DNA of 64,000 bases from Eledone cirrhosa. Its lineage: Eukaryota. Below the pieces are notes generated by a model. It saw only the letters and a list, made by a program, of their open reading frames with translations, did no database searches and was not told the DNA's origin. Both the position numbers and the translations under genes were made by a program. Positions within the stretch are counted from its first letter, which is position 1; each line of letters starts with the position of its first letter. Where the stretch lies: assembly GCA_964016885.1 (NCBI GenBank), contig OZ024747.1:61938001-62002000 (forward strand), written 5' to 3'. Shown piece by piece: positions 40,105 through 61,878 of this stretch.

Positions 40105-40110
<6 letters not shown>
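39763..40110 (-). mobile_element. piggyBac-like MITE interrupted by a family A SINE (39875-40060)
   Basis: TTAACCCTTTAGCATTTAAACC start; MITE body resumes at GTGAGATATTATG after the SINE. Confidence 0.72.
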
Positions 40111-40139
<29 letters not shown>

Positions 40140-40449: not shown

Positions 40450-41622
40450 TCCATAACAGACACAAATACACAGTTACTATAGATGTGTAACACTGCAGGG
40501 TCCATAACAGACACAAATACACAGTTATTATAGATGTGTAACACTACAGGGTCCATAACAGACACAGATACACAGTTATTATAGATGTGTAACACAGCTG
40601 TATCAATAACAGACACAAATACACAGTTACTATAGATGTGTAACACTACAGGGTCCATAACAGACACAAATACACAGTTATTATAGATGTGTAACACTAC
40701 AAGGTCCTTAACAGACACAAATACACAGTTATTATAGATGTGTAACACTACAGGGTCCATAACAGACACAAATACACAGTTATTATAGATGTGTAACACT
40801 ACAAGGTCCATAACAGACACAAATACACAGTTATTATAGATGTGTAACACTACAGGGTCCATAACAGACACAAATACACAGTTATTATAGATGTGTAACA
40901 TTACAGGGTCCATAACAGACACAAATACACAGTTACTATAGATGTGTAACATTACAGGGTCCATAACAGACACAAATACACAGTTATTATAGATGTGTAA
41001 CACTACAGGGTCCATAACAGACACAAATACACAGTTATTATAGATGTGTAACACTACAGAGTCCATAACAGACACAAATACACAGTTATTATAGATGTGT
41101 AACACTACAGGGTCCATAACAGACACAAATACACAGTTACTATAGATGTGTAACACTACAGGGTCCATAACAGACACAAATACACAGTTATTATAGATGT
41201 GTAACACTACAGGGTCCATAACAGACACAGATACACAGTTATTATAGATGTGTAACACTACAGGGTCCATAACAGACACAAATACACAGTTACTATAGAT
41301 GTGTAACACTACAGGGTCCATAACAGACACAAATACACAGTTACTATAGATGTGTAACACTACAGGGTCCATAACAGACACAGATACACAGTTATTATAG
41401 ATGTGTAACACTACAGGGTCCATAACAGACACAAATACACAGTTATTATAGATGTGTAACACTACAGGGTCCATAACAGACACAGATACACAGTTATTAT
41501 AGATGTGTAACACTACAGGGTCCATAACAGACACAAATACACAGTTATTATAGATGTGTAACACTACAGGGTCCATAACAGACACAAATACACAGTTACA
41601 ATGTAACACTACAGGGTCCATA
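40450..41622. repeat. 51-bp minisatellite, ~23 units
   Basis: Unit GGGTCCATAACAGACACAAATACACAGTTATTATAGATGTGTAACACTACA; one extra diverged unit at 41870-41915. Confidence 0.98.
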
Positions 41623-41624
41623 AG

Positions 41625-41865
41625 TCTGACTCAAGCCAAGAGGCTTCGGCCAGTGTTTATCACAGTTTTGTGGCATGAAGATGACAGTCCATCACAGGGT
41701 TAAATCCCCAGCTATTGCTGGTACTCATTTTCTGCTGAGTATACTGGAGCAACGTGAAATGAAGTGTTTTGCTCAAGAACACAACAGGAAACCCAGCCCA
41801 GGAATGACACCCACGACATAATGATTGTAAGTCCAACACCCTTACCACTAGGCCATGCATCTCCA
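41625..41865 (-). mobile_element. tRNA-derived SINE (family B-like head and core)
   Basis: Reverse complement: GCATGGCCTAGTGGTAAGGGTGTTGGACTTAC...TGTGTTCTTGAGCAAAACACTTCATTTCACGTTGCTCCAG. Confidence 0.75.
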
Positions 41866-42730
41866 CAGAGGGTCCATAACAGATACAAATACACAGCTAT
41901 TATAGACATGTAACATTTGATAATTCACAAGATCCACAGGTACACAGTTAATATGCTTGTGTGGCATATATATATATATAGCTGTGTGTATGTATATATA
42001 TATGTGTCTGTGTGTGAGTATGTGTATATATTTTATATATATATATATATGTGTGTATGTATATGTGTATGTATATATGTAAATATGTGTATGTATATAT
42101 ACATATATACATACATATATACATACATATATTTACATATATTTACATACATATATTTACATATATATATATATATATATATATACATACATATATTTAC
42201 ATATATATATATATATATATATAAGTAAATATATATATTTACATATCTACATGTGTGTGTGTGTTAATGATTCAAATAAAACTGGTTTGAAGAGGATGCA
42301 CATAAAATGAAATTTTCACAATGCATTTGAAATATTCATGAGTCTGATGTTTAAATATGATGTAGTTTGTATGTTGTTGTTGTTATATATGTTATTGTCA
42401 TATTGTTATCAATGTTTTCATTGAAAGGCACTCCATACCTTTTTTTTTTCTAACAAGCTCTGAAGAACAAATGAAATAAATGTGAAATTGTAAAGGTTTT
42501 TAAATTAATGACGCCATAACATTTACAGCTTTCATTTCACTACAACATTCCATGTTTTTAGCATCTATTTGCAGTACATATATCATCCATATCTCTACAC
42601 CTATCTCTTTGTTACATAACATACAAGAAGGTGTGTGGCTTAGTGGTTAGACTATTGAACTGATGATCATATGCTTGTGGATTGTCTAAGTTCTTGCACT
42701 ATATATATATATATACATATATATGTATAT

Positions 42731-42906
42731 ATATGAAAAAATTCAGGACCCCGACAGCTGAGCTTTAGCCGTTTCAACACAGCTAAATCCGTTTGGAGCT
42801 CAGCTGTCAGGGTCCTGAATTTTTTCATATTACCCTCTCTACTACCCCAAGTATCAAGTAGTCTGGTGAGTAATAGTCTAACTGGTTTTTACTGCCTACA
42901 TTCTGA
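42731..42906. mobile_element. Unclassified hairpin-ended short element, copy 3
   Basis: Palindrome ATATGAAAAAATTCAGGACCC...GGGTCCTGAATTTTTTCATAT (42731-42830) plus a unique tail; TA repeats on both sides. Confidence 0.75.
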
Positions 42907-42925
42907 TATATATATATTTCGCAGG

Positions 42926-43593
42926 GCGATAAAAATAGACGGTAGCCACGTAGTAGGCAGACCCAGAAAAACCTGGGACGACTTGATAAATTCCGACCTC
43001 ACACACTTACACCTCTCCAAGACAATGTCACTGGACCGAGATCTTTGGCGCTACACAGTTATACAGAAGACCCACCTTGCCTAAGTACAAAGCGAAACCT
43101 ACAGTCAGTAGGCACCTCTAACAAAATACACCCCCGTCCCACTACCCCCACCCCATCCACACCACACCCTTAAATGTGAAGTTATATTGGTACCACAACA
43201 TCCAGTCCGAAACAAATGAGGTCATGTAGGTGTCACAACAAAAAAAAAACACAGTCCACGCTGTAATGTGGCCATGTAGGTAACATGGTAAAAACCTCCC
43301 AGTCCACACTGTAAACGTCGTTGGTGTTGGGAAGGGCACCCAGCCGTAGAAAACCTGCCAGATGTGTAGGTGTCACAACAATAAAACACAGTCCACGCTG
43401 TAATGTGGCCGTGTAGGTAACACGGTAAAAACCTCCCAGTCCACACTGTAAACGTGGTTGGTGTTAGGAAGGGCATCCAGCCTAGAAAACCCGCCAGACG
43501 GTCCTGAGCAAGACAACCAATCTTGCCTCAAGTGGGACAATTCCCATCCATCTAGCGTGGAAAATGGACATTAAACGATGATGATGATGATGA
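42926..43593 (+). mobile_element. 5'-truncated RTE LINE (same family as 47200-49465)
   Basis: Near-identical to 48925-49460 (IKIDGSHVVGRPRKTWDDLINSDL plus 3'UTR and (GAT)n), with a ~120-bp internal duplication in the UTR. Confidence 0.9.
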
Positions 43594-43865
43594 TATATAT
43601 ATATATATATATATATAGTTCAAGGAAATGACAAAACAGTGGTACAAAAAGTCTTAGTTTATTACTTTATATGGAAAAGGGGAAATAAAGTTTGACGTGT
43701 CAGGCTTTAGCCTTTCTTCAGGAGTACAAAAAAAAAAAGAGAGAGATGATCACAAAGGATAGATACAGAAAATAAAAGGTAGTCTGTAGTGAAAAAAAAA
43801 AATGAGAGTAGACAAGACAAACCGTTAGGGAGTCTTAGAATGCAATATGATATATGTATGTATAA

Positions 43866-43907
<42 letters not shown>

Positions 43908-44426
43908 AAACACACATGCACAGAACTTTCTGGGAGGTCAGTAACCCTGCTTTAGAACTGATTCGGTCTGTGAAGATGTATCCAACCCAGGCTAGCAGTA
44001 AAAGTGGACATTAAATTATGATGATGATGATAATGACCATCATCATCATTGTTTAATGTCCATTTCTCCATGCTATCATGAGTTAGACAAGTTCTCTGGT
44101 TGCGAGACAAATCAGATCAGATGACCATGTCTTGCTCATACAGAACTGATTCTGGCTTGGGTTCTACAGCTGCAAATATTCTGTATTTTATGTTAGAAGG
44201 TCAATGATATTCTTTAGTTACATTTATTATATACTCCACTATTGCTGCTCCCTCTTTTTTACTGTTTAGTCAGGTAGGGAAAGGCTCTGTCCAGGGCCCC
44301 TTTCAGTCTCTAAGACTGATGGAAGCGTGGAAGGAAAGTATCACAAAACTGGAGATATGATGAGAAAGCTTGCAACGGAGGGGACATTGATGAATGCACC
44401 CAAGGACCATGTGGTGATGGTGTTAA

Positions 44427-44631
44427 CCCTTTTGCATTTACATTACTCTATATTTACTATTGTATTTTCACAGAAAACACTTTATCTCACATAATATTGA
44501 ATGTATGAGATTTTGATATTTATTTTGAGAACAATACCTTAATGTCAGTATAAGCAGCCAGTTACGTCCGGTTTGAAAAGAAGGAAGTTTGAAAATTCTG
44601 GCCAGATATGGTCGGTTTAGATGTGAAAGGG
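44427..44631. mobile_element. piggyBac-like MITE
   Basis: TTAA-CCCTTTTGCATTTAC ... GAAAGGG-TTAA. Confidence 0.82.
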
Positions 44632-45722
44632 TTAAACCAGCCAACAGATTGCAGAAGCAAAGCCTTCCCACCATTAACTATCAAAGGAAATAATGTAATG
44701 AAGTAGAATAAATTAAATAACTAATAAATACGTAGGGATCGGGAAGAAATAAGTACCCACTTTGACTCTGGAGGCTCAGCTGACAGATTAAGTCTACAAC
44801 TCAAATAGGCCATAGTAGGATTTCAACTCAAGATGCAGAGAGCCAGAACAATTCCACAAATCTGTCCCCTACAATGGACTGCTATTCTATCAATTACCCA
44901 CCCCACCCCTCCTGGAAGGCCAAAGGTCAGAGAGCAAAGTTCACTTTGGTATTTGAACACAGAGATCTAGAGTAAATGCCACAAGAAATGTGCTACGTTT
45001 TAACAATTCTGCCAATATGGTGTGCGTGGAGTGAGAAGATATAGAGAAACAACAAATATTGATGTGTGTGTGTGTACGCGCATGTTCATATGTGTGTGCG
45101 CATGTGTGTTGGAATGGGGGGGGGGGGGCAAAGACTAATACACCCCCCGTCCACACACACACTGAGCAATAAAGGTTCAAAAGTGAAACAAATTAATAAA
45201 ATAAAAAATCATTCAGTTTTGAAGTACAGTTAATTAATTTTAGTTTTTTAAAACAAATATTCATCAGTTATTTAATTTTTTTTTTTTTTAAAGATATAAT
45301 TGATTGGTTTATTTCTGAAGAAATATTGGCTGTTTGTTTTAATGTTGCCCAAGAAATAACAGTCGAGTGGTTTAATGATTGAACTAATATTGGTCAATTG
45401 GCTTCCTTCATATTCCATAGCCATCAATACACACTGTTCATAACTTAAGTACTGTAGTCATAATCAACTTTTAACTCTTCATCTGCCAAACACTCGATGT
45501 TCTGACCTTTGACCCAGAGAACCAACTAACTTATGACACTACCAGAATAGAAATTAACACATTTAAAACCAAACTGCCTATTATTACCCCTAGGTTCTAT
45601 GGTACATAGCTGTTAATTTTGAAGTGTTTATATTTATATATATATATATGTGTGTGTAAAAGGTAAACAGAAATAACAACACAATCGGTACAACGCTTGA
45701 TATAGTAGGAAGAGGATCTTAA

Positions 45723-45758
<36 letters not shown>

Positions 45759-45767
45759 TGTGTGTGT

Positions 45768-46000
45768 ATCATCATCATCATCATCCTCGTTTAACGTCCA
45801 CTTTCCACGCTAGCATGGGTTAGATGGGAGTTGTCCCACTTGAGGCAAGGTTGGTCGGGTGACCGTGTCTCGCTCATATAGGACTATCTGGCTGGTTTTC
45901 TACGGCTGGATGCCCTTCCTAACACCAACCACATTTACAGTGTGGAACTGGGAACTTTTTACCGTGTTACCTACACGGCCACATTACAGCGTGGACTGTG
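45768..46000 (-). mobile_element. RTE 3'UTR fragment
   Basis: Reverse complement of 49240-49460. Confidence 0.8.
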
Positions 46001-46354
46001 TATATATATATATATTTAAACTTGCATCATAACACTTTTGAAACCAAACTGCTATTGCTACCCTCAGATTATATGATACATAGATGTTTATTTAAAGTGT
46101 TTATCATCATCATCATCGTTTAACATCCATCTTCCACGCTAGCATGAGTTAGACGGTTTTGTTCCATTTGATGCAGGAATGGTCGGTAGACCATATAAAA
46201 GAAAAACTTCAATCATAATTTTATTTAAGAATCTTTGTTATGTGCTAAACTCCAACTTAAATATGAGAAAGTTATTTTAAATCCTTACAAATTCTTATTT
46301 TTAAAATCAACTGAATATCATAGGCAGTGTCTTTCGTTAGGAATATTGAAATTA

Positions 46355-46612
46355 TTATCATCATCGTTAAACGTCCATTTTCCATGCTAGCATGGATTAG
46401 ACGGGTTGTCAGGTGACCATGTCTTGCTCATACAAAACTGTTTCTGGCCTAGTTTCTATGGCTGGAAGCCCTTCCTAATGCCAACCACACTTACAGTGTG
46501 TGCTGAGTGCTTTTTGTCGTGATACCAACATGACCACTTTATAGTGTGGGCTGGGTATTTTTTGTCATGATACCTACACGACCACTTTACAGTGTGTACC
46601 GGGTGCTTTTTG
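46355..46612 (-). mobile_element. RTE/SINE-B 3' tail fragment
   Basis: AACGTCCATTTCCATGCTAGCATGG...CCCTTCCTAATGCCAACC. Confidence 0.75.
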
Positions 46613-47012
46613 TAGAAGAAGAAGAAAAAGAAGAAGAGCAGCAGCAGCAACAGTTTCATTGAACAAATCAGGTAAAACAGTGATTGTCGATACCAATGAA
46701 AATCCAACACACAAAACTGATAAGTTCTTTTTTTTTTTTTTAAAGTTAAAATTAATAAAACATTTCAAAATAGGCTAAAATTAAAGGTAAAAAAAACCCT
46801 CATAAAAATACTCTCTTAAAAAAATATATCCTGACCATCATTATTTGAATAGAAAAATATATTGTGTATGATAAGATCGTAAATGTGATTATATATAATA
46901 GATTTTCATCAAATTATATTGATATATTGATAATCAGGAAGAGGAAACTATAAAAGGAAGTTTTGTCATAACAGAAATGTAAAGTTTGTTTTATGTATGT
47001 GTGACTATATAT

Positions 47013-47053
<41 letters not shown>

Positions 47054-47199
47054 CACACATACACATACATACACATGTGTGTGTCTTTATATACATATAT
47101 AAAAATGTATGTGTGAGTATATATATATATATTTATATTTATATATATATATATATATATGAATGTGTGTATGTACACACACACACACACCTATGTATG

Positions 47200-49465
47200 G
47201 CATCTGGAAGAAAGTGATAATGGCTTGGAAAATATGAGAAGGTAGTTGACTTTGTTGAATGGTAGAATAAGAGAGAAGTTAATACTTTCAATGATGTTGT
47301 CGTGGAGAAGTGTGTCCTTAATGATGATGGTGTACTTGCCATCACTGACGCTGATAAGAAGGTAGCTTGGAAGTGTCACTACGAAAGGCTACTAAATGAG
47401 AATAAATGGGAGAAAGACAGTCTCCCCCACATCGATCCAATCGAGGGACCAGCAGTGCAAGTTGAAGGTAGTATAATAAGTAAGGCGATCAAAGATATGA
47501 AGACGGGTAAGGCGGCTGGGCCTTCGGAAATAGTTGCTGAAATGCTGAAAGCATCTGGAATGGTGGGACACACTATGGTCACCCGGATAGTAAACCAAGT
47601 CATACAGAATGGGGTCATTCTGAAGGACTGGCGTAGCAGCATCATCGTTAACTGCTACAAGGGTAAAGGAGATGCCCTAGATAGGGGAAGCTATAGAGGC
47701 ATTAAATTAATTGACCAGGTCATGAAGGTCACAGAAAAAGTAATAGCGCAACTAATCAGAGAGCGAATTGATCTAGATGAAATGCAGTTCGGGTTTGTGT
47801 CAGGTAAAAGTACCACAGACGCTCTTTTCATTGTACGACAACTACAGGAGAAGTACCTAGCTAAAAGTAAACCTCTATACTTAGCTTTTGTTGACTTTAA
47901 GAAAGCCTTTGATAGAGTCGCACGCCCCATTATCTGGTGGGCTCTCAGAAAACTAAGTGTTGATGAATGGCTTGTGAGAGCTATACAAGCCATGTATAAA
48001 GAAACAGTCAGCAAGGTTAGAATTAACAACGAATATAATGAAGAGTTTAGCGTAAAAGTTGGTGTTCATCAGGGCTCCGTCCTTAGTCCCCTCCTATTTA
48101 TTATTGCCCTTCAGGCTATAACAGAGGAGTTCAAGACCGGCTGCCCATGGGAACTCCTATACGCAGATGATCTAACGCTCATAGCTGAATCAATGGCTGA
48201 AATAGAGAAGAAATTCCAAACATGGAAGCATGGCCTAGAATCAACCTGTCTAAGACTAAAGTTCTAGTATGTAGGAAGGAAAATAGGGCACTGGTTCCAT
48301 CTGGGAAATGGCCATGCTCAGTATGTAGGAAAGGAGTAGGCAGAAACTCAATTTTATCTCCCAAATGCAAAGTATGGGTGCATAAAAGATGTAGTGGGAT
48401 CACAGGTAAGCTAACTAAGAATATAGATGTGGCCGGTGCTCAGGTGCAATAAGTAGCAGCAAGTGCCCACAGAATACTAGCTCATTCCATTGCACAGATG
48501 GTTCTATAGAAATAGTGGACACCTTCCATTACCTGGGTGACAAAATCAGCAGTGGTGGAGGGTGTTCTGAAAGTACAGTAGCTAGAGTAGATGGAAAAAG
48601 TTCAGAGAGCTTATACCACTATTGGCCGCTAAAGGTTTCTCTCTAAAAATGAAAGGCAGGCTGTATGATGCCTGCATACGAACAACAATGTTGCATGGCA
48701 GTGAGACCTGGGCATTGTGTGCAGAGGATATACGCAGACTGGAGAGGAACGAAGCTTGCATGCTCCGTTGGATGTGTAATAGTAATATTGAACGGCAAAG
48801 CATAAATGAACTAAGGGAGAAATTAGGAATAAGAGGGATCAGATGTTGTTTACTCGAGAGAAGACTACGTTGGTATGGTCACGTGATGCGCATGAAAGAC
48901 GACAGCTGTATAAAAAAGTGCAGCGCGATAAAAATAGACGATAGCCACAGAGTAGGCAGACCCAGAAAAACCTGGGACGACTTGATAAATTCCGACCTCA
49001 CACACACCTCTCCAAATCAATGTCACTGGACCGAGATCTTTGGCGCTACACAGTAATACAGAAGACCCGCCTTGCCTAAGTACAAAGCGAAACCTACAAT
49101 CAGTAGGCACCTCTTAACAAAAATACACCCCCATCCCACTACCCCCACCCCATCCCTTTCAATGTAAAGTTATGTTGGTACCACAACATCCAGTCCGAAA
49201 TAAATGAGGTCGTGTAGGTGTCACAACAAAAAAACACACAGTCCACGCTGTAATGTGGCCGTGTAGGTAACACGGTAAAAACCTCCCAGTTCCACACTGT
49301 AAACGTGGTTGGTGTTAGGAAGGGCATCCAGCCGTAGAAAACCCGCCAGACAGTCCTATGCGAGCAAGACAACCAATCTTGCCTTAAGTGGGAAAATTCC
49401 CGTCCAAACCCATGCAAGCGTGGAAGATGGACGTTAAACGATGATGATGATGATGATGATGATGT
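47200..49465 (+). mobile_element. RTE-clade LINE, 5'-truncated, RT with frameshifts
   Basis: RT motifs YRGIKL, QFGF, AFVDFKKAFD, GVHQGSVLSPLLF, LLYADD; Cys/His insert PCSVC..CKVWVHKRC; RLRWYGHVMR, GRPRKTW; 3'UTR ending in (GAT)n. Confidence 0.95.
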
Positions 49466-49729
49466 CACATCTAAGGATGCTTTTATTAAAGTGTTTGTAG
49501 TTGAATGAACATCTCTAGCAATGATTAATATGTGAAGAAGTAGACTTGTGTCTTTTATTAAACTTATATTAATACCCAGTGAATACCTGATTATTTTGAA
49601 AATTCACTGACAAACAATAGGTAGTCAATTCTTGTGAGAAATAGGGTCAGAAAAAGTTGAGATTTGTTTAAGTTACTGACACAAAAGGCTTTAGATTAAA
49701 TCTTCCATTTAGAACTTTCATCTATATAT

Positions 49730-50224
49730 AATTGTTTCTACATTTGGCACAAGGCCAGCAATTATCACAGTGCATTACTGGTACTTTATGTTATCGACCC
49801 TGTAAGGATGAAAGGCAAAGTTAACCTCGGCAGGATTTGAATTCAGATCGTAAAGGGACGTAACTATGCTTCAAAGCATGGCGTCCGACCCTCTACCAAT
49901 ACTGCCAATCCACCGCCCTTATAATTGTTTCTAGTTTTGGCACAAGGCCAGCAATTACCCAGTACATTACTGGTACTTTATTTTATCGACCTCTGTATGG
50001 ATGAAAGGCAAAGCAAAATTATCTATATATAATAATTCTTTCAACTTTTGGCACAAGGCCAGCAATTATCCCAGTGTATTACTGGTACTTTATTTTATCG
50101 ACCCCGTAAGGATGAAAGGCAAAGTTAACCTCGGCGGGATTTGAACTCAGGCCATAAAGGGCCGTAACTCTTTCCTGCAAAGCATGGCCTCCGACCCTCT
50201 ACCGATACAGCCAATCCACCGCCC
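49730..50224 (-). mobile_element. Three stacked family A SINEs (49730-49918, 49922-50015, 50037-50224)
   Basis: Three GGCACAAGGCCAGCAATTA ends; third copy has 17-bp TSD TATCTATATATAATAAT (50020-50036 / 50225-50241). Confidence 0.88.
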
Positions 50225-50290
50225 TATCTATATATAATAATGAATTAGAAGGCCACATGATATAATTTCATCACAATCTATTTATTACAT

Positions 50291-51238
50291 GGGAAATGGG
50301 CGACTGGCACATCGAATGTGCTCAGGCGCTCACAGTCCTCTGGCAAACGGACCCGGCGATCAGTGGAGACTCCACTTCGACATTCTATAGAGGGTTGGTC
50401 CGCAGCAAGTGCGATGACACGCTCGGAGAAACTCTAGGTGTAGAGGAGGACGAACTGGCCAGTCTGTTCGGTAAGATCTTCCACCCGGGACCAATAGACA
50501 ACTTCCAAAAGTCCCTGGCCTGGCAGTGCTACCGAGGAGCTCTACCAGTTAGAGACAAGTTCTACAGACACGGGCGCCCGGGTATAGACCCTTCGAAATA
50601 GATCTGTCCAAGATGCGTGCGTGATGAGGAAACCGTCGCGCATGCATTTGTACACTGCCCGGGCATTACCGACCTGTGGGGCTATGTAGAACGACTATTG
50701 TCGCGGGTGGGACCAATCCAGTTGACCACCGAGTCCATTGTCATGATCAAACCGCCACCCTCCTTCAAAAATGAGGGAGAGGCGGTTTTCCTATGTGTTA
50801 TGGCTATGGTGAAAGAGGTTGAAAGGGCTGAGGTCAGACACCTTTCTCTCCGGCGAGCAACTAATTCGTTTTTTCAAATATCATTTTAGAAGAAGAATCA
50901 GGATGGAGAGAGAGGTGCTGTACCCCAGCAAATTTGATAAAAGGTGGGTGAATGTGGCAAAGATGGCCCGAGTGGTTGGGCCTTCTCTCTATATAAGCCT
51001 GTAGGTTGAGGAAAAAGAGGAAGAGAGGAAGGGAGTACTCACTCTTGGTGCTCTTGGAGATGAGGGTTGTACATTTTTTCGTAGTGTGTACAACCCCTGT
51101 GTAACACCTCCCCGCTATTGGGGATATCAATTGTTATTTGTTATTTTATTAATAGTTTCATTTTCATATACCTGTATGTAAACTCCCCATTTGTATTTGT
51201 CCCCTTCTTTTGTGCCCTTGTGGCTAATAAAGAAAATT
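50291..51238 (+). mobile_element. L1/Tx1-clade LINE, 5'-truncated, with 16-bp TSD
   Basis: zf-RVT-like KSLAWQCYRGALPVRD..CPRC..EETVAHAFVHC; AATAAA near the end; TSD AATCTATTTATTACAT at 50275-50290 and 51239-51254. Confidence 0.88.
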
Positions 51239-51464
51239 AATCTATTTATTACATAATCCTGTGATGTGTATTTTGATGGCATCTGTTATGTAAGAATCAG
51301 ACATGATCTCATCAGACAGTACATTACTTATCTAATCATTAGTGATATGATTATCTATCTGATATACCAGTTGGTGGGTGTAGATGTTTCCTTACCACTG
51401 AGCTAGCATATATATATATATATTAATTCAAAATATTAATAAATATAGACATTCATGTAATCAA

Positions 51465-51536
51465 ATATATTTTATTATATATATTTCGGCGGTACTGTGC
51501 TGTTTCCTCAGTACGTCCTCATCAGATAAAATATAT
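51465..51536 (-). ncRNA. Minimal type I hammerhead ribozyme (Penelope-like pLTR type)
   Basis: Minus strand: 11-bp stem I AUAUAUUUUAU/AUAAAAUAUAU, CUGAUGA, stem II GG..GUACUG/CAGUAC..CC, GAAA, palindromic UAUAUA, UA site. Confidence 0.85.
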
Positions 51537-51592
51537 AAATTGATGTATGACATACCTCAACTGTGCTGGTGGTTCAATTCCAGTCTTGGCAG

Positions 51593-51650
<58 letters not shown>

Positions 51651-51651
51651 G

Positions 51652-52330
51652 CAGTAGACCCTTGCACTACAAGTGCCCCATTGTACAAGTAATTTGCTGT
51701 ATGAGCCAAGGCTCGTGCATATTTTTGTCTTGTAGTACGAGTAGAAATCTGCAATACGAGCGAGTTTCATAAAAGTGACCACACTAGTTGGCGCTGAGCT
51801 CACACAGGCTCTCCCAACAAGTGCACCATCTACTTGCTCAGTAAACGTGTTTATCTCGTTGTGGCAGCATCCCTATTGTTTTCCCAATTTTTTTTTTTTT
51901 TTTTTTTTTTTTTTAGTAGTGTACGTTTTTTGCTATTATTTTATAATATTTCATGGAAAAGATTGGTTCCCCAGTGGAGGACATTGTAGCAGAGACAGCT
52001 ATCTCTACAAGTGACATAAAGGCAGTGATGGTAAAGTGGCAGGATGTTTCTGAATTTGTAGAAAAAAAAATCATCCTGAAAAAGTATCTAGAGGTTGTGC
52101 AGCTGCTTTATTTAATGTCACTGCTCCGACGCATTTTTGTAACATTTTGAAAGGCAAGAAAAGCAGACTTCTCTTTCTATAATTCTAAGTGAGAGAGAAA
52201 ATGCCAGAAATTATTCTTCCTGAAGTCTTAATAGAAAACAATAAGCTTCCTCCTCCATCGTCTTCCTTGTGCACAAATCATCCCATCTTTAAGGTAATTA
52301 AACTAATAAAACCAGTTTACATATTTCTTT
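51652..52330 (+). mobile_element. Tigger/pogo-like DNA transposon remnant, internally deleted
   Basis: Starts CAGTAGACCCTTG (Tigger-like terminus); frameshifted ISTSDIKAVMVKWQDVSEFVEKK-HPEKV..ALFN..THFCNILKG resembles a Tigger transposase C-terminus. Confidence 0.62.
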
Positions 52331-52547
52331 CGCATTCTTTTTTATTATGCTTTTATCATGCCACCAACACTACCACTTTACAGTGTGTACTGGGTACATT
52401 TTATCATGCCACCAAAACTAACACTTTACAGAGTGTACATGGTGTATTTTATGTTGAATATAAGTGGTTTCCTAAAAAAATTGGAATGTTAGGAATGCTG
52501 AGTTTTGAAAAAATTCAATGTAAGTCTAATATAAAATTTGGGAACAT

Positions 52548-52732
52548 GCATATCTGGCCTCTTTCTGTTGAAACAGGCTGTAACCAGCTATTCATACTTA
52601 TGTTAAGGTATTGTTCTCAAAATAAGAATTATCAAAATCTCATAGATTCAGTAATATGTGAGATAATTATGCAAAGTAAAGTATTTACCATGAAAATACA
52701 ATGGTAATTATGGAGAAATGTAAATGCTAAAT
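52548..52732. mobile_element. piggyBac-like MITE, degenerate, inverted
   Basis: Reverse-complement homology to 17471-17690; ends TGTAAATGCTAAA. Confidence 0.65.
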
Positions 52733-53274
52733 CTGTTTGTGTATTAATGTAATCACAAGTAGTTGTATTAGATTGTGTGAGAGCATGTGTATCTGTGAGT
52801 GACTGAGTATGCATGTGTGTTAATGAATGTGAATGTATGCAGGTGTGTGTGTGTGTATCTATGTATAGATTTATGTACATGAGTGCATATGAATAAAATA
52901 GAGTTTACAGCCAGGTAAATATAGATAAGCATGTGTATATAACTGTAGCTCAATTAGGTGATCATTACTAATATTGATAAGTAAAATAAATTATTAATGA
53001 AAGAAATTGATTAGTATGGCTGATAATAAAAATAATAAGGAGGATTGTAATGAGGTGGTGGGGTGGGGGGATGAGATTTAATAATAATGATAAAGGTATT
53101 TGCAAACTTTCTCAATTGTTTACAGATAGTATATCACAGATTGAAAAAAGTAGAAACAGGCAAGAGAGAGAAGAGAGGGAGGGCGGGGGCGAGAGAAAGC
53201 AATTAGTTAATCATAATAATCAGGATTGTGATATATAAGTGTGTGTATATGTATATACATAAGTGTGTGTATAT

Positions 53275-54843
53275 AATAATAATAATAATGAAATTATTGT
53301 GTAAAGTGCTCAGGTGCACTACAACTCGTCAATATAGTACATAGAATAATACACAAATGCCAGGGAAGTACATGTTTGTATGTGTTAGCTGTAGTGTTGG
53401 CGGATCTCGGGAAGCATGGAGGCCTTAAAGGATGCAGTGTCTCGACAGCTAACAACTGATGCAGGTAGTTTGTTCCATGCTTCAGCAACTCTGAGCGTGA
53501 AAAAATGTTTCCGAAAGTCATGGGAACTGTGCTGTTTTCTTACTTTGTAGGCATGTCCACGTGTGTTAGACACATGGAAATCGAAAAGGCACTCAGGGTT
53601 GTTGTTGGCAACATGGTTAACAATTTTGTGGGTGTTTACCAAGTCAGTTGCCAGGCGTCGGAGCTTCAATGAATCCATGCCCAGGGAAGCAAGGCGCTCA
53701 GAGTATGGTAGATGCCTGATGGAGGGTATTCGCTTGGTTGCACGTCTCTGAACAGTTTCCAGGCGGTCAATGTCCTGAGCAAGATAGGGGTTCCAGACTG
53801 GTGATGCAAATTCTAAGTGTGGTCGCACCATAGCTGTATACAGCCTTAAATAGATATCTGGAGAGCGGCTGACAAAGGTCTTGCTGAGTGATGCTAAGAC
53901 ACCCTTGGCCCTCTTGACAATTTTAGAGACGTGCCTCGTCCAACGCAAATCGCTGCTGACCGTAATGCCCAGGTCACGTTCACAGGAAGACTTCTTGATA
54001 TTAGTGCTGTGGAGGGAGTATGTGGACGCTGGGTTTTTACTCCCAAAATGCATGGTGGTGCACTTGTCCACAGCTAGCTTGAGTTGCCAGTCTGAGATCC
54101 ACTGTTGCATTGTGTCCAGGTCAGACTGCAAGCAAGATCTATAGTGTTCAGGATCTGTCCTTTTTATCTCAAGGTACAGCTTGATGTCGTCTGCGTACTT
54201 TAGTACTGTGGCATTCCTTAAGTTGGCATCTATGTCATTAATATATGCCACAAACAAAAGGGGGCCAAGAACAGATCCCTGAGGTACACCAGATGACATC
54301 TCATATGGTGAGGAATGTTGTCCCAGAACCGTGACTACCTCTCTTCGACTGAGAATGAAGGACTTCAACCAGTTAAAAAGATCATCCTTCACACCCATTG
54401 CAGAGAGTTTTGCCATAAGCCTTTTGTGTGGCACAGAATTGAAGGCCTTCGCAAAGTCAAGGTAAACAACATCCACCCATGAGCCGCCATCAGTGATCCG
54501 GGTGATGTCCTCAAGAAACTCTATAAGTTGATCACAGCAGCTGGAGTTGGGGATAAATCCAAATTGCGAGGGCCGGATAAGACTGTGAGAGCTCCAGAAG
54601 TTCCAAAGTGTTTCTCTGACACAGGATTCCATCAGTTTGGCGATGCAACTAGTAAGACTGACTGGACGATAGTTCACAGGTGATGTGCGGTCACCCTTTT
54701 TGAACAGAGGAATTACACTGGCAGTTTTCCACTGTTCTGGAGTAGCACTGTTGTTCAGACAGAATTGGAAGAAGCGTGATAACTGGTGTAGAAGGAAGTA
54801 CCCACCACGTTTAAGAAGCAGGCACGTAACACCATCAAGACCA
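53275..54843 (-). mobile_element. CR1-clade LINE, 5'-truncated, uninterrupted RT ORF (~485 codons)
   Basis: NYRPVSLTS, QFGF, VDVVYLDFAKAF, SGVPQGSVLGPLLF, KYADD, VRPHLEFASPVW, TRGH..K, FFTLRV..WNKLP; (ATT)n tail. Confidence 0.96.
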
Positions 54844-54949
54844 TATACATATGTGTGTGTGTGTACATTATAATACATACCTAGTTTTTTATACATACCC
54901 ACATAAATTCACACATACACATACATACATACATACATACATACATACA

Positions 54950-54982
<33 letters not shown>

Positions 54983-54984
54983 CA

Positions 54985-55930
54985 TCATCATCATTGCAAT
55001 CGCTTGTCAGATCCAGATGTGTGACGCTCGGTTATGGTTTTTCAAGCCTGTTAGAAACTTGCACTCCTTCGCACACTGACAACAACTATGGATCTCCCTG
55101 GCCTCAGGTCCTCCATCAGGTTGCCTGTGAACCTTCACAACACCGTGGAGATCATAGTTCACTGGTTCTCTTTCAAACATGGCTGTGACTGTGGCTCCTG
55201 AGACAAGATTTGCTGAAGCAAATCTTTCCACACTCAGGGCACACTAATTCAATGGAGGCACCAATTGTTTCGAGAGATACACCAGGGCATTGCTTATGCA
55301 CATCCCGTTTGATCTTCTCGTGCTCTATGCATCTATCCTCAAAATTATGGACCCTCATTCATCATTCCATGCCAAGTTTCTCTTTCAAGAGCTTCTATCT
55401 CCCAGTCAGCCAACATCAAACCAGTTTTTTTCAATGAGTCCTTTACACAATCTTTGAATTGGAGCTTTGGTTTATGAGGTCTCTTACTTTTACAAAGCTC
55501 GCCATACAAAAGATGTTTTGGGATTTGATCATCCTCCATTCTGCAGAGGTGTCCAGTCCATCGCAAACGTTGTTGGTGGATGATACTTTCAATGCTCCGA
55601 CATTCACTTCTCACAAGGACCTCAACCTCACTCACATGCATCTGCCACTTGATATTGAGCATCTTTCTGAGACACTGCTGGTGAAATCGTTCCATGCCTT
55701 ACACGCATACATCAATGCTGACAGTACACATGCGGCATTCATTATCACCTTGGTCTTCATTGTGATTCCTTGCCTGGACCAAAGACAGTCGCTGAGCCTT
55801 CCAAATGACATACTTGCTTTGCTAACATGCAGACCAACTTCTGCATCCAGAGAGCAGGTCACACTCAGAGTACTCCGCAAATACACAAATCAGGTTGATA
55901 TATGATGACAGTCACCTTCAGACTGATTGT
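54985..55930 (-). mobile_element. Degenerate RTE (BovB-like) LINE 3' part
   Basis: Frameshifted YLRSTLS, RFHQQCLRKMLNIKW, RLRWTGHLCRM..PKHLLYGEL; two C2H2 fingers (CPECGK..H, CCQC..H); (GAT)n tail. Confidence 0.85.
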
Positions 55931-56174
55931 CAGTCCCAAAACACTGCACGCATTGGAAAAAGAATCCATTCATACGCACACATTCATATATCTATACATA
56001 TCTATAATATATATATATATATTTATGTGTGTGTATATATATATATACATATATATGCGTGTGCATGTGTGTGTGTGTATATATATATTTATTAAAATAA
56101 CAGATTAAAGTTTAAGCAAAGAATCGCTGCTTTCACCCTTAACAGGATCTTCTGAAACTAACAAAGTCAATCTG

Positions 56175-56204
<30 letters not shown>

Positions 56205-56240
<36 letters not shown>

Positions 56241-56526
56241 AATTATTGTGTACAGTGCTCAGGTGCATGTATAGTACATAGAATAATGTACAAATGTCAG
56301 GAAAATGAACAGTGTACGAGTCATGATATAATAATAATAACAATAATGAAATATTGTGTACAGTGCCCAGGTGCACCACAACTCATCAAAAAAGTGCATG
56401 TACAGTACATAGGGCAATGCACAAACATCAGTAAAATGAACAGTGCACGAGTCATGATACACACATGTGTGCATGTGTATGGAAGGGGTACATCAGGTGT
56501 AGTTTTGGCGTATTTCGGGAAGCATA
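56205..56526 (-). mobile_element. CR1 3' end fragments (partly duplicated)
   Basis: Homologous to 53275-53417 (AATTATTGTGTA.AGTGCTCAGGTGCA...GTAGT.TTGGCG.AT.TCGGGAAGCAT). Confidence 0.75.
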
Positions 56527-56739
56527 TATATTCATACGTGTATATATATACACACACACATATCTACAGAGGTAGATACACATGTAGGCTTAGTAAAATC
56601 CCCAATCAGAAACCTTATTAATATCTGTTATAGAGGTGAAAGTAGTTAAAGTTGGTCAAACAACTTTACTGACAATTATAACTGAAGATACAGCTGAGTG
56701 ATAACAGCACTGGAACAGAAGTGAATGATGAAAAGAACA

Positions 56740-57629
56740 ACACATACACGTGCCTCTGTGTGTATGTGTGTGTATGTGTGTGCATGTATATGTGAGCATA
56801 TATACATATATGTACATGCATATACATACATACATACATACATTTACATACACATAAATATACATATATATACATACACATGTGTACATACATACATACA
56901 TATACATACACATAAATATACATATATATATATATACATTCACATGTGTACATACATACATACATTTACATGCACATAAATATACATATATATATACATA
57001 CACATGTGTACATACATACATATATTTACATACACATAAATATACATATATATACATACATACACATGTGTACATACATACATACATTTACATACACATA
57101 AATATACATATATATACATACACGTGTACATACATACATACACATAAATATACATATATATATACATACACATGTGTACATAATACATACATACATTTAC
57201 ATACACATAAATATACATATATATATATACACATACACGTGTACATACATACATACATTTACATACACATAAATATATATATATATATATACATACACAT
57301 GTGTACATACATACATACATATACATACACATAAATATACATATATATATATATATACATACACATGTGTACATACATACATACATTTACATACACAAAT
57401 ATACATATTATACATACACGTGTACATACATACATTTACATACACATAAATATACATATATATATACATACACGTGTACATACATACATACATTTACATA
57501 CACATAAATATACATATATATATACATACACGTGTACATACATACACCCACATATATATATACACACATACATATACCCACATATATATATATACACATA
57601 TATATATGTAAACATAGATGTGTATATAA

Positions 57630-57680
<51 letters not shown>

Positions 57681-58079
57681 TATATTTATAGGTATGTACA
57701 TACATATATACATATATATACACACATATGTGTATGTATGTATATATATATATAGTACAGTAACTTAGTACAAACAGAAAATTTAGGTAGAAACTAAGGT
57801 GTTTTGCACAGACCAAATCACCAGAGTATAACACACACACACACACAGACATGGACACACAGCCATGGACACACACATAGACTAGTGGGGTATTACAGAG
57901 AAACACATACACATATTGACATACAAACATCCTCACATGCACACACAGTATCACTACCAATTACTAACATGCATACATACATATATACATACATACACAC
58001 ACATTGATGTTCACACCCATACTCACAAGCATGCACATTAATTGAAGTATACACACACACACATATATATATGTACAGA

Positions 58080-58141
<62 letters not shown>

Positions 58142-58560
58142 TGCACATGCATGCACAGCATCGCAGCAAATTACAAACACGCACATATATATATATATAC
58201 AGACTTTCAGACACACACACACACATATGCATGCACATTAGTTGGAAAAACACACACACAGCATTGCAGCAAATTAGAAAAACACACACACACACACACA
58301 TACACACGCATGCACATTAATAGGAGTACACACATATACACACACACATTTACATGCATGCACATTAGTAGGCATACACATGTATACACATACAGCAAAT
58401 TACAAACATATATACACACTGACTTTCACACACACACATTTACATGCATGCACACTAGTAGGTGTACACACATATGCACACATGTAGAGAAGAGTAAGAG
58501 AGAGAGAGAGAGAAAGAGAGAGACAGAGAGAGAAAGAGAGAGACAGACAGAGAAAGAGAG
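56740..58560. repeat. Long TA/CA/TACA compound microsatellite region
   Basis: Direct reading. Confidence 0.93.
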
Positions 58561-58848
58561 ACTGGTTAGTGATTAGCTTCAATAAAACTGAAAGTAGGTC
58601 CTTGTGTTAGCACAATTTGGTTCCTTTCATGTTATTCAGAGAATGGGTGTAAGTGTGTGAGGGGAGGGGAGAGGGCAGGAGGTGGTGGGGAGGGGGTAGA
58701 AGGAGGTGTGGTTGAAGGAGACGAAGGAGGGTGAGGGGGGAGAAAACAGAATGGAAGATGAATAAAACCACTTAACTGAAAAATTCTACAATAAAATTCC
58801 TTCAGTAAATTTATATCTCAAAGTAGTTTTCTTGAGCAAGGGAACAAC

Positions 58849-58937
58849 TGTAGTGGTAGTAGTAGTAGTAATAGTAGTAGTAGTGGTAGTAGTAATGGTG
58901 GTAGTAGTAGTAGTAGTGGTAGTAATAGTAGTAGTAA

Positions 58938-58969
<32 letters not shown>

Positions 58970-59140
58970 ATGGTAGTAGTAATGGTAGTAGTAGTAGTAA
59001 CAATAGCAATAATGTTAATATCAATAATAATAATAATAATAATAGTGGTAATAATAATTCCTATAATGAAAGTATTAATAATGATTTCTAATTTTATAAC
59101 AGTAATAGTAATAATTCCATTAATAATAGGTTTAATAATC
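58849..59140. repeat. (GTA)n/(ATA)n trinucleotide tract
   Basis: Direct reading. Confidence 0.9.
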
Positions 59141-59141
59141 A

Positions 59142-59330
59142 TAATTGTTTCTATGTTTGGCACAAGGCCAGCAATTATCCAGTACATTACTGGTACTTTA
59201 TTTTATCGACCCCGTAAGGATGAAAGGCAAAGTTAACCTCGGCGGGATTTGAACTCAGATCATAAAGGGACGTAACTATGCTTCAAAGCATGGCCTCCGA
59301 CTCTCTACCGATACTGCCAATCCACCGCCC
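59142..59330 (-). mobile_element. SINE family A, full length
   Basis: Near-identical to 49730-49918. Confidence 0.88.
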
Positions 59331-59933
59331 TATCTATATATAATAATGAATTAGAAGGCCACATGATACTCCACCATTATTGTAATCTCAAATGGATGCT
59401 AAATGAATTAGCCAGACTTTACAGTAAAACAAAAATACACAATGACAACATATAAAATACACAACTTCAAAAAGTGACAAAGAAATATATTTACTATGAA
59501 TGTTGGAGTTCTGATGCAACTAGAAAATTATTATAAAATATCTACAGTAGGACTACAAAAAGATGTTGTGAAGAATAATTAAAACCGATACAAATAGCCA
59601 GAAAACCTAGACAAAACTGTTGTTTTCTGTCTTCAAAGAAGCTAAGAAATACAAAACAGAGACTAATTTGACAGACAAATTTGAAAAGAAAAAAGAAACA
59701 ACAGAAATTGTAAAAGAGGAATATTAACCTTATTGATACAAAACCACCCAGAACTGCCCCTTGCTTTTATGATACAAACCCGTTTCTATCAAATTGTTTA
59801 TCATCATCATTTTTTTGTCAACTTTTCTACACTGCCTTCGGTTGGATGAGACTTTTTGTAGCAATGTTTTTCAGCTGGATGCCATTTTAGTTTGTTTCTT
59901 ATGCCATGAAAGGATATGGTGCATCTATTTTAA

Positions 59934-60141
59934 CCCTTTGGCATTCACATTACTCTATATTTACTATTGTATTTTCATGATAAAGGCTTTATCTCACATA
60001 ATATCGAATCTATGAGATTTTGATAACATTTATTTTGAGATCAATACCTTAACGTCGGTATGAGCAGCCGGTTATGACCAGTTTGAACAGAAAGAAGTGA
60101 TAGAAATCTGGCCAGATATGGCCAGTTTAAATGCTAAAGGG
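59934..60141. mobile_element. piggyBac-like MITE
   Basis: TTAA-CCCTTTGGCATT ... AATGCTAAAGGG-TTAA. Confidence 0.85.
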
Positions 60142-60799
60142 TTAAACCAGGCAACAGCTTTACATCATAATTTTAACCAAGAACCTTTGTTATTTTTTAA
60201 TAATGAGAAAGTTATATTACTAAATTTCTCCATTATTCTCAAAATTACTTGAAAGGGTAATACTTGAAAACAGAGTTAAATGTAAAAAATAATGTAATAA
60301 ACATCACTACTCTAGCTGTCCTCGAAATAGGTTATGGTTATATTCCCAACTAGATGTTATGTTAAGTAGCAAAACCAAATGGAAAAAAGAAAATACTTGA
60401 AAATAGCTGCCTTTAGAATACACCATTTAAAATCTGACATAAATTACATTTACTCCAAAGAGGTTAGGAGGAGGGAGGGGGGGGGTATACAACTAGAAAA
60501 CTTATACAATTTCCACTGTAGAAATACAAAAATATTTAGTGAAGTGTAATGGAGAGTTAAAACAAAGAAATAAGAAAGAAAAAAAAGAAACTACTGTTCT
60601 GTCTTCAAAGAAACCAACAAATATAAAACAGATTCTAAAATAAGAGACACTTGACAGAAATTGTGAAATTGAAAAATTAATCCTTTAGTTGCCAACCTGG
60701 CCAAAACCTGCTTTTGTTCTATGAAATAAAACCACTTATTTTAAAAGTTTCCAGTTTAAATTAAAATCTTCCACCATAATGTTATATAATAACCTCACA

Positions 60800-61132
60800 T
60801 TAAGTTACTATTTTATTTACAAAATAATAATTTTAGTAAATCCATCAAAATTCTTCATTAATTAATTAAAATAGTGTTTATTTTATTAGAAATATGGTCA
60901 TGATTGGGTTAAGTTACTATCTTACTAATGAAATAATAATTTTAGTAAATCTCTCAAAATTCTTCATTAATTAATTAAAATAGTGTTTATTTTATTAGAA
61001 ATGTGGTCATTAAAGGGTTAAGTTACTATCTTACTAATGAAATAATAATTTTAGTAAATCTCTCAAAATTCTTCATTAATTAATTAAAATAGTGTTTATT
61101 TTATTAGAAATATGGTCATTAAAGGGTTAAGC
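60800..61132. repeat. Three tandem ~110-bp units ending in a MITE-like AAAGGGTTAA terminus
   Basis: TAAGTTACTAT...AAATAATAATTTTAGTAAAT...GGTCAT..GGGTTAA recurs three times. Confidence 0.85.
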
Positions 61133-61354
61133 TAAAAATGGAGCAACAGAAAGCAATAACAATAGTAGCCATCCCCTAAATAGTCAATACAAAGAAATAT
61201 CACAGCAGTGGTTGTGGTGAGTCTTTTAGTCATGAAGTTGAAACGAAAGGATTCTTTCAGTTACAAAGCTGAAACTAAAGGACTCTTTACTGCAGTAACT
61301 ACCAAAAACATGTAATGAGGACAGAATATATTAAGCAACTAAAGAAACAATTAA

Positions 61355-61700
61355 TCACATTCACTTCTCCAGTGGCAATCTGGTGCAGTCTGAGACTATT
61401 CCAGGCTCTGCTGCACTTCAGGCATGAGAAAGGTAAACTCTCCAAATATCAGTTGCTCTTCAACAGGTTTACAGTTGAGCCTGTAACAGTGGAGACTTCT
61501 GGTGTTCTTGGCCCTAGGACCACCTCCCTACATGGAGTTGACTACCCGCAGGTGTGAGCCTCGTGAGCTGGAATGACTCTTCCAACACATCTACCTTACC
61601 GTCCTCTGGGGAAACACCTTCTCTATTCTGTCTGCCAGGAAGGCAAGACAGCCAGCACATGGGGTCCCATTTGTGTGGGTTCCCATAGAGAGAGATGGGG
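61355..61700 (+). mobile_element. CRE-like (RLE) non-LTR retrotransposon 3' fragment
   Basis: PGSAALQA.E/KLSKYQLLFNRFTVEPVTVETSGVLGP..EPRELE.LFQHIYLTVLWGNTFSILSA follows the CRE C-terminal pattern K..KY..L...F.P..VET.G..G...FQR.S..V.RGNA. Confidence 0.72.
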
Positions 61701-61878
61701 TGAGTGAGAGAGACGGAGGCAGTGAGTGAAAGACAGTGAACATCAATGCACACACGCACATCTAATTCTAAGTATTTATCACATTGCATCTGGTTGCTGA
61801 GTCTTAGCCAAGACAGAATACATCTAAAGGTATGGCAGAATTGAGTGTTTTCATACATTCAAATTATGCCAATATAAT

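What the first reader, a model, noticed from the sequence alone, without database searches (positions are those of the whole stretch)
51424..51594. Second intact minimal hammerhead, on the RIC1 sense strand
Seen: perfect 11-bp stem I, CUGAUGA, stem II, GAAA, UAUAUA palindrome and UA site, in a ~170-bp island bounded by (TA)n. Stems I and II are unrelated to the 19453 ribozyme but the core and palindrome are identical, so structure rather than sequence is conserved. Inference: a second family of short TA-embedded ribozyme elements. If RIC1 extends over this site, it could cut the pre-mRNA intron (predicted between 51476 and 51475), and the shared palindrome could allow cross-family dimers.
Basis: partly seen in the sequence, partly recalled or inferred. 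Interest (0 to 1): 0.75.

Follow-up and report, generated by a model that had tools for sequence, protein, structure and literature searches.

The report
Solo hammerhead end of octopus retroelement
This is the 171-base ribozyme-shaped end piece of a common Penelope-like jumping gene, one of hundreds of near-identical copies in an octopus-type genome, and it sits in an intron of the RIC1 gene, where it is predicted not to cut the host RNA on its own.

Summary
The motif is real: 11-bp stem I, CUGAUGA, stem II, GAAA, UAUAUA, UA site (cut 51476/51475), with no like hit in 200 shuffles. It is not a stand-alone ribozyme element. The 171-bp island is the pseudo-LTR of a new Hydra-clade Penelope-like retroelement: longer copies read RT, C-terminal endonuclease, 1.1-kb UTR, this unit; 31 of 40 endonuclease-picked loci carry it downstream (control 7 of 152). 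It lies sense in a 59.3-kb RIC1 intron. Cutting RIC1 is unlikely: stem III cannot form in a monomer, a published minimal PLE hammerhead was inactive singly, this copy has a stem II mutation, and the RIC1 introns scanned hold 8 sense and 7 antisense motifs. A mixed dimer with the 19453 motif fails: that motif is antisense, and double hammerheads swap stem I, which does not match. Short copies share one 5' start, some with an extra G, so they were likely copied from capped, uncut RNA. Side results: a C·C mismatch in stem II shared by seven families, and roughly 150,000-390,000 motifs genome-wide. The scan reported similar elements on other DNA before. Ordinary: new family of a known clade.

The parts
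51424..51593 (-). Solo pseudo-LTR (pLTR) of a Hydra-clade Penelope-like element, short form without the 93-bp tail
   Evidence: 96-100% identical copies genome-wide; same unit ends RT-EN-UTR copies and precedes tail and ORF start in L093
51588..51593 (-). Fixed 5' start of short copies; inferred transcription start (capped RNA end)
   Evidence: 10 of 21 UTR-less copies start at unit positions 2-7; extra G in 4 of 16 TA-flanked copies; inference
51526..51536 (-). Hammerhead stem I, 5' arm (11 nt)
51519..51525 (-). Catalytic core CUGAUGA
51488..51518 (-). Stem II: G10.1-C11.1, G-C, A·G (mutated; A-U in the family), C·C mismatch (51515/51491), 6-bp helix, 11-nt loop
51484..51487 (-). Catalytic core GAAA
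51477..51484 (-). A15.1-UAUAUA-U16.1: 8-nt palindrome; stem III only in a dimer
   Evidence: monomer pair probability 0.002; 8 of 8 bp in dimer model
51475..51476 (-). Predicted cleavage site after A17
   Evidence: standard hammerhead numbering applied to the sequence; cleavage not tested
51465..51475 (-). Hammerhead stem I, 3' arm (11 nt)
51594..51647 (.). (TA)27 target array on the element's 5' side
51408..51423 (.). (AT)8 target array on the element's 3' side
35367..64000 (-). Part of the 59,326-nt RIC1 intron that holds the element (continues to G000:C7:62032692)
   Evidence: exons for residues 865-912 and 913-941 of an octopus RIC1 protein flank it, with GT/AG sites
35280..35366 (-). RIC1 exon (residues 913-941)
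19390..19556 (+). The 19453 motif: 167-bp unit of a second family, antisense in the next RIC1 intron; probably also a Hydra pLTR

Best explanation
The island is a solo pseudo-LTR of a TA-targeting, Hydra-clade Penelope-like retroelement, likely reverse-transcribed from a capped, uncut element RNA into a (TA)n tract of a RIC1 intron, and its minimal hammerhead is predicted to cut only as a dimer and so to leave RIC1 RNA largely uncut. Shown: the family is a repeat; its long copies run pLTR, 93-bp tail, ORF (RT then endonuclease), 1.1-kb UTR, pLTR; the site is a sense intron position. Inferred: the element RNA starts at the A at 51593; the element's endonuclease nicks (TA)n; RT primes at one of two fixed ends (unit end or tail end) and here ran to the RNA's 5' end through the unbroken ribozyme site. 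Inferred from literature and folding: in the element's own tandem transcripts two hammerheads pair through the 8-nt palindrome and swap stem I, which allows slow cleavage to unit length; a lone intron copy has no close partner.
For: Repeat: 1377 first-look candidates, 40 scored, 46 matches at 96-100%; 201 exact matches to a 35-nt core stretch, 0 for the reversed control. Link to ORF: L087 has RT pieces, endonuclease, UTR, unit in order; 31 of 40 loci picked by endonuclease alone carry the unit downstream on the same strand, 2 on the opposite strand, 17 have an inverted copy upstream; control 7 of 152 tile-strands. Hydra motifs CxCX5C, CxxC, CxH, DKT match the clade description. Tail leads into the ORF start in L093. 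Fixed 5' start: 14 of 22 and 10 of 21 UTR-less copies, two partly overlapping sets; base before the start is C in 56 of 57 UTR-linked copies but G in 10 of 29 UTR-less ones. Penelope transcripts start inside the upstream pseudo-LTR (PMC2377424, passages). Monomer stem III probability 0.002; homodimer favoured by 6.2 kcal/mol; a single minimal PLE hammerhead showed no cleavage, dimers low cleavage (PMC4209133). 8 sense and 7 antisense motifs in 254 kb around RIC1.
Against: No intact ORF of this family was seen; all long copies examined are broken. Pfam does not recognise the proteins (best RVT_1 E = 0.044, below cut-off; no endonuclease hit), so the clade call rests on motifs compared by eye with published sequences, not a tree. 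The RWK motif reads WWR in the one copy that covers it. The unit is about 3.8 kb, longer than the clade's usual 3 kb. The cap reading is modest: 4 of the 10 Gs can come from an inverted arm, only 4 of 16 TA-flanked copies show G, and the window copy has none. 5 of 21 UTR-less copies start at 101-116, near the cut site, which cleavage could explain. The orientation count is one gene, n = 15. Nothing here measures RNA or cleavage.
Confidence: 0.82

Rival explanations
1. The copy cuts the RIC1 pre-mRNA in vivo, as a monomer helped by a protein or as a dimer with a compatible partner, and tunes RIC1 output.
For: Sense orientation in a RIC1 intron; core intact; dimers with other sense copies in the same gene (window-relative -11418 and -44876) keep 8 of 8 stem III pairs and 8-10 stem I pairs and are favoured by 2.7 and 4.6 kcal/mol; Cervera and De la Pena suggest host factors may help.
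Against: Those partners lie 63-96 kb away in other introns; the only other sense motif in this intron has a non-matching 2-nt insert; stem II mutation; no sense depletion; with the TA flanks stem I pairing drops to about 0.3; a slow hammerhead cut in an intron did not block splicing in mammalian cells (as summarised in PMC2995048, passages).
Confidence: 0.07
2. The 171-bp unit is a self-propagating non-autonomous element (SINE- or retrozyme-like) derived from the pLTR and copied from its own short or circular RNA.
For: Most copies lack the UTR (22 of 30; 21 of 30) and share a 5' start; retrozymes are reported to derive from pLTRs (Li et al. 2026, part 1 and passages).
Against: No head-to-tail array among the 30 best loci; no circular permutation seen; solo and ORF-linked copies share the same subfamily variants; 11 of 30 copies carry the tail, which is the ORF's 5' leader. 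Whether solo copies are themselves transcribed is open.
Confidence: 0.15
3. Solo units are left by recombination between the two direct pLTRs of a full-length insertion, as with solo LTRs.
For: L093 has two direct pLTRs around an ORF; recombination would also give a fixed start.
Against: Head-to-head pairs with both arms starting at position 2 and untemplated bases at the joint (L296/L297) are not recombination products; direct-pLTR copies look rare (2 of 40) against many solos.
Confidence: 0.06
4. Mixed dimers form with the 19453 family through the shared palindrome.
For: The palindromes pair at 8 of 8.
Against: Swapped stem I gives 1 and 0 pairs and the dimer costs 9.5 kcal/mol over two monomers; the 19453 copy is antisense to RIC1.
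Confidence: 0.02

Closest known systems
Hydra clade of C-terminal-endonuclease Penelope-like elements, including Hydra-1_Obim (Craig et al. 2021, PMC8557442; passages, section 11, supplement part 2 and search passages seen)
   Same: RT then endonuclease; CxCX5C linker, CxxC and CxH, DKT; (TA)n targets; hammerhead about 100 nt from the 3' end; inverted upstream pLTR; tail at one end only.
   Different: A different family from Hydra-1_Obim: unrelated hammerhead stems and a diverged RT (by eye). Longer unit (about 3.8 kb), 93-bp tail rather than 30-40 bp, perfect even palindrome, long stem II with C·C. Far more abundant here than the paper's few families suggest.
Minimal PLE hammerheads (Cervera and De la Pena 2014, PMC4209133; parts 1-2 of 4 read)
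   Same: Type I core in a pLTR, G10.1-C11.1, long helix II, palindromic helix III, mostly solo copies from truncated elements, dimer model.
   Different: No extra base between positions 9 and 10.1; stem I is long (8-11 bp, not 4-5); C·C mismatch not mentioned in the parts read; estimated motif load 150,000-390,000 against about 4,000 and 9,000 in their richest vertebrates (different descriptors).
Metazoan non-LTR retrozymes (Cervera and de la Pena 2020, PMC7229834, search listing only; Li et al. 2026, 10.64898/2026.07.22.740005, part 1 of 5 and passages)
   Same: Short non-coding unit with a type I hammerhead, related to pLTRs, many dispersed monomers, often in introns.
   Different: No head-to-tail arrays seen; the unit is still attached to a coding element; no circular RNA evidence.
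Domesticated intronic hammerheads of amniotes, such as RECK (named in PMC6155905, passages)
   Same: Type I hammerhead on the sense strand of a long intron.
   Different: Those are, from recall, single-copy and deeply conserved; this is a young member of a repeat family with a private mutation and no stable stem III.

Membership tests
Hydra-clade PLE | Single ORF, RT followed by C-terminal GIY-YIG-type endonuclease | tested here: met
   Order seen in L087, L092, L093, L096; ORFs are broken; Pfam gave no hit over cut-off
Hydra-clade PLE | CxCX5C linker before the endonuclease | tested here: met
   Present in L092, L093, L096; first C mutated in L087
Hydra-clade PLE | No CCHH; CxxC and CxH around the conserved E and N | tested here: met
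   CNLC and CLH in L087 and L096, read by eye
Hydra-clade PLE | DKG modified to DKT | tested here: met
   L093; mutated in L087
Hydra-clade PLE | N-terminal RWK motif | tested here: inconclusive
   The matching place reads WWRAFHF in L093, the one decayed copy examined
Hydra-clade PLE | Insertion into (TA)n | tested here: met
   26 of 37 3' ends run into TA, 10 into the tail
Hydra-clade PLE | Hammerhead in the 3' pLTR, sense to the ORF | tested here: met
   31 of 40 endonuclease-picked loci
Hydra-clade PLE | Generally under 3 kb (typical, not diagnostic) | tested here: not met
   pLTR to pLTR is about 3.8 kb in L093
Hydra-clade PLE | RT groups with Hydra in a phylogeny | not tested
   Reference proteins were not available to the script box; compared by eye
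Minimal PLE hammerhead | Conserved core, G10.1-C11.1, UH site | tested here: met
Minimal PLE hammerhead | Palindromic 15.2-16.2/loop 3, no stable monomer stem III | tested here: met
Minimal PLE hammerhead | Extra base between positions 9 and 10.1 (common, not universal) | tested here: not met
   G10.1 follows A9 directly
Minimal PLE hammerhead | Self-cleavage as a dimer | not testable with these tools
   Needs in vitro assay
Non-LTR retrozyme | Head-to-tail tandem units, each with a hammerhead | tested here: not met
   None in the 30 best loci; second copies are inverted
Non-LTR retrozyme | No linked coding sequence | tested here: not met
Non-LTR retrozyme | Abundant circular RNA | not testable with these tools
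   No RNA run was available

The most novel reading that the evidence does not exclude
This octopus-type genome carries a few hundred thousand minimal hammerheads, and several families share the same UAUAUA palindrome, a UUUUAU/AUAAAA-type stem I and a C·C-marked stem II, so they can complete each other as mixed dimers. Long pre-mRNAs such as RIC1, with eight sense motifs, would then be cut at sites like 51476 whenever a compatible partner is supplied in cis or by element RNA in trans: a transposon-seeded, genome-wide intron-cutting network.
Probability: 0.07. Interest if true: 0.7.

Novelty: new member of a known kind. Interest (0 to 1): 0.22.

Why it matters
As it stands this is an ordinary insertion: a new family of a clade already described in octopus, with a ribozyme type already described in such elements. 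Its value is as material for an open question, what PLE hammerheads do in vivo. Short copies that span the cut site and end at a fixed, possibly capped, start imply that the copied RNA was uncut. The many families with different palindromes and stems give a natural test set for the dimer model, including the prediction that partners need matching stem I as well as matching palindromes. The shared C·C mismatch is a candidate tertiary or protein contact.

Tried and rejected
Rfam scan: nothing at gathering thresholds. Naiad clade: considered first, rejected because the endonuclease is C-terminal and motifs fit Hydra. Pfam on six ORF pieces: no hit over cut-off. Protein database search with an RT piece: 7 hits, 37-50% identical, none informatively named. 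Expression: no RNA holder listed; laying three runs of unknown kind only showed repeat depth and the 51490 variant. Hand-picked alignment A1: two of 23 rows had wrong coordinates, not used for counts. Homology of the two units outside the ribozyme: not significant (127 and 315 of 1000 shuffles as good); their tails align better than 500 of 500 shuffles but narrowly (66 vs max 62). Linking the 19453 family to an ORF: L043 and L050/L153 are separated from ORFs by TA tracts and were rejected; L195 has an endonuclease 1.06 kb upstream and five other copies share 170-410 bp of that upstream sequence, so the link rests on one locus. Pile-up of 5' ends exactly at the cut site: not seen; five ends at 101-116 can be TA microhomology. 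Other CUGAUGA hits at 51315 and 19637 lack GAAA. Literature: no paper with hammerhead + C-C mismatch + stem II + retrotransposon; hammerhead ribozyme + octopus gave only Craig 2021 as relevant; a 2026 O. vulgaris repeat annotation has no 'hammerhead' or 'Hydra' in its main text. The library lacks most subscription papers; Repbase and Dfam were not searchable; supplements of the 2014 paper and of bioRxiv preprints were not seen and may show the C·C layout or this family.

Full report
Observation. The minus strand at 51536-51465 reads stem I (11 bp), CUGAUGA, a 31-nt stem II domain, GAAA, UAUAUA, UA and the other stem I arm. The predicted cut is between 51476 and 51475. My descriptor finds only this and the 19458 motif in the non-satellite part of the window; 200 dinucleotide shuffles give 0.05 hits on average and none with an 8-bp stem I. 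The folded 72-mer has stems I and II but no stem III (z = -2.3). Rfam gives no match. The copy differs from its family at two sites: 51569, and 51490, where 25 of 27 near copies have U and this one G, which breaks the third stem II pair (also seen).

A repeat, and the end of a coding element. The island is a dispersed repeat: 1377 first-look candidates, of which 40 were scored, giving 46 matches at 96-100%; a 35-nt core stretch has 201 exact matches. Several top copies extend upstream into a shared AT-rich sequence. Searching with it led to copies such as L087, which read RT fragments, an endonuclease, about 1.1 kb of UTR and then this unit. To test the link without bias I searched with the endonuclease alone (151 matches, 150 listed) and fetched 40 of them, hand-picked across 68-88% identity with a preference for top hits and long frames. 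31 of 40 have the unit downstream on the same strand, 0.9-2.2 kb after the endonuclease; 2 have it downstream on the other strand; 17 have an inverted copy upstream; 37 have it somewhere. In neighbouring unselected DNA 7 of 152 tile-strands of 2.5 kb have it. L093 shows the full plan: unit, 93-bp tail, short leader, ORF start, RT, endonuclease, UTR, unit again about 3.8 kb on. The tail is therefore the ORF's 5' leader. All long copies examined are broken.

Clade. Craig et al. 2021 (PMC8557442; passages, section 11, supplement part 2 and search passages) define the Hydra clade by a C-terminal endonuclease without CCHH, a CxCX5C linker, CxxC and CxH, DKT, RWK, (TA)n targets and hammerheads, and list Hydra-1_Obim from Octopus bimaculoides. 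Our family shows the linker, CxxC, CxH and DKT; RWK is altered in the one copy covering it; 26 of 37 3' ends run into TA and 10 into the tail. Its hammerhead stems are unlike those of Hydra-1_Obim, so it is a new family. Pfam did not recognise the proteins and I built no tree, so the clade call rests on motifs.

Host context. The RIC1 domain maps 31-49 kb right of the window on the minus strand. An octopus RIC1 protein maps exon by exon at 79-100% identity from window-equivalent 163280 to -70193 (residues 614-1416; the 5' half was not fetched). The element sits in the 59,326-nt intron between the exons for residues 865-912 and 913-941, about 43 kb from the donor and 16 kb from the acceptor, on the sense strand. 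The 19453 motif is in the next intron, antisense.

How the copy arose (inferred). Among the first 30 of 201 copies picked by the core, 22 lack the UTR and 14 of these begin at unit positions 1-8. Among the first 30 of 151 picked by the 3' end, 21 lack the UTR, 10 begin at 2-7 and 5 at 101-116, while only 4 are truncated within the 1.1-kb UTR; the sets overlap and some rows are two arms of one insertion. So there is a fixed 5' start. By eye, 4 of those Gs can come from an inverted arm, 2 lie in an untemplated spacer and 4 stand between (TA)n and the start, out of 16 TA-flanked copies; the window copy has no G. Penelope transcripts start in the upstream pseudo-LTR from an internal promoter (PMC2377424, passages). 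The simplest reading is reverse transcription from the unit's 3' end to the capped 5' end of an RNA that was not cut at the hammerhead. Ends fall at two fixed places 93 bp apart, with the tail on one arm of head-to-head pairs, as described for PLEs.

Does it cut? In a monomer A15.1-U16.1 pairs with probability 0.002. Cervera and De la Pena (PMC4209133; parts 1-2 of 4) found no cleavage for a single minimal PLE hammerhead and low cleavage for dimers. In a double hammerhead the palindromes pair and stem I is exchanged between partners (geometry from established knowledge of the Forster model). Modelled that way, a homodimer is favoured by 6.2 kcal/mol, mixes with three other families or subfamilies by 2.7-4.6, and the mix with the 19453 motif is disfavoured by 9.5 with only 1 and 0 stem I pairs. 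The 254 kb around RIC1 hold 15 motifs, all inside the gene, 8 sense and 7 antisense; the only other sense motif in this intron has a non-matching insert; compatible sense copies lie 63 kb or more away. With its TA flanks stem I pairs only about 30% of the time. Slow hammerhead cuts inside introns did not stop splicing in mammalian cells (second-hand, PMC2995048 passages). No RNA data could be examined. Cutting of RIC1 RNA is unlikely but not excluded.

The 19453 family. It is a separate repeat (773 candidates, 40 scored). Six of about 40 copies share an upstream sequence, one (L195) has a Hydra-type endonuclease 1.06 kb upstream, and one head-to-head pair has a tail resembling ours. It is probably another Hydra pLTR; the ORF link rests on one locus, and the units are not significantly alike outside the ribozyme.

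Background. In 40 tiles of 10 kb at round coordinates the descriptor finds 35 motifs in 18 tiles, against 1 in reversed sequence; bootstrap gives 0.5-1.3 per 10 kb, or about 150,000-390,000 motifs (not insertions) in 3.0 Gb. 18 of the 35 have a perfect palindrome, 7 a wobble one, 10 none; 14 are TATATA-type. Clustering 378 hits from all loci held (biased to the two families) gave 27 clusters; all 7 distinct families with a TATATA-type insert and at least two hits have 3 bp, C·C, then a longer helix in stem II (one of them with weak pairing in the first 3 bp) although the neighbouring pairs differ; the TGCGCA family has C·U; five families with 2-4-nt inserts lack it. Relatedness may explain part of this. 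One paper search found no description.

Verdict. Observation confirmed; interpretation partly supported. A new family of a known clade with a known ribozyme type, in a genome where such ends occur about every 12 kb. Interest 0.22.

Noticed in passing
L201-L240 (40 unselected 10-kb tiles): Minimal hammerheads occur at about 0.9 per 10 kb, implying 150,000-390,000 in the genome, far above the 4,000-9,000 published for the richest vertebrates (different descriptor).
   Followed up: partly
window 51515/51491 and 19468/19488; other families: Stem II layout 3 bp, C·C, longer helix is shared by seven TATATA-type families whose stem sequences differ; absent from families with 2-4-nt inserts.
   Followed up: partly
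L153:2046-4088, L195:227-2413, L093:7399-8499: A young Hydra-type family with open frames of 681-729 aa, 99.5% identical over the RT; my pattern found no canonical hammerhead in 2.6 kb downstream in L153 or L093.
   Followed up: partly
L256 and L126: Two copies end at unit position 119-120, the predicted cut site; a later insertion into the TA palindrome explains this as well as cleavage.
   Followed up: no
L296/L297, L244/L245, L246/L247, L008/L028: Head-to-head pairs of short units, one arm with the 93-bp tail and one without, some with untemplated bases at the joint.
   Followed up: partly
window 1-13285: 21-bp satellite, about 633 copies, 96% matches, inside a RIC1 intron.
   Followed up: no
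window 47266-49056 (+) and 53385-54908 (-): Reverse-transcriptase-like frames of 333 + 156 aa and 507 aa; they look like RTE and CR1/L2 LINE pieces (labels from recall, not tested).
   Followed up: no
window 51315 (-) and 19637 (-): CUGAUGAG cores without a following GAAA close to both ribozymes; chance or decayed copies.
   Followed up: no
window 51518-51511 (-): The start of stem II is one mismatch from the RGACGTGY downstream promoter element reported for Penelope, but lies about 75 nt from the inferred start, too far for a usual DPE.
   Followed up: no
G000: 151 matches to this endonuclease among 150 scored candidates, at 68% identity or more: Hydra-clade elements are abundant here, in many subfamilies.
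   Followed up: partly
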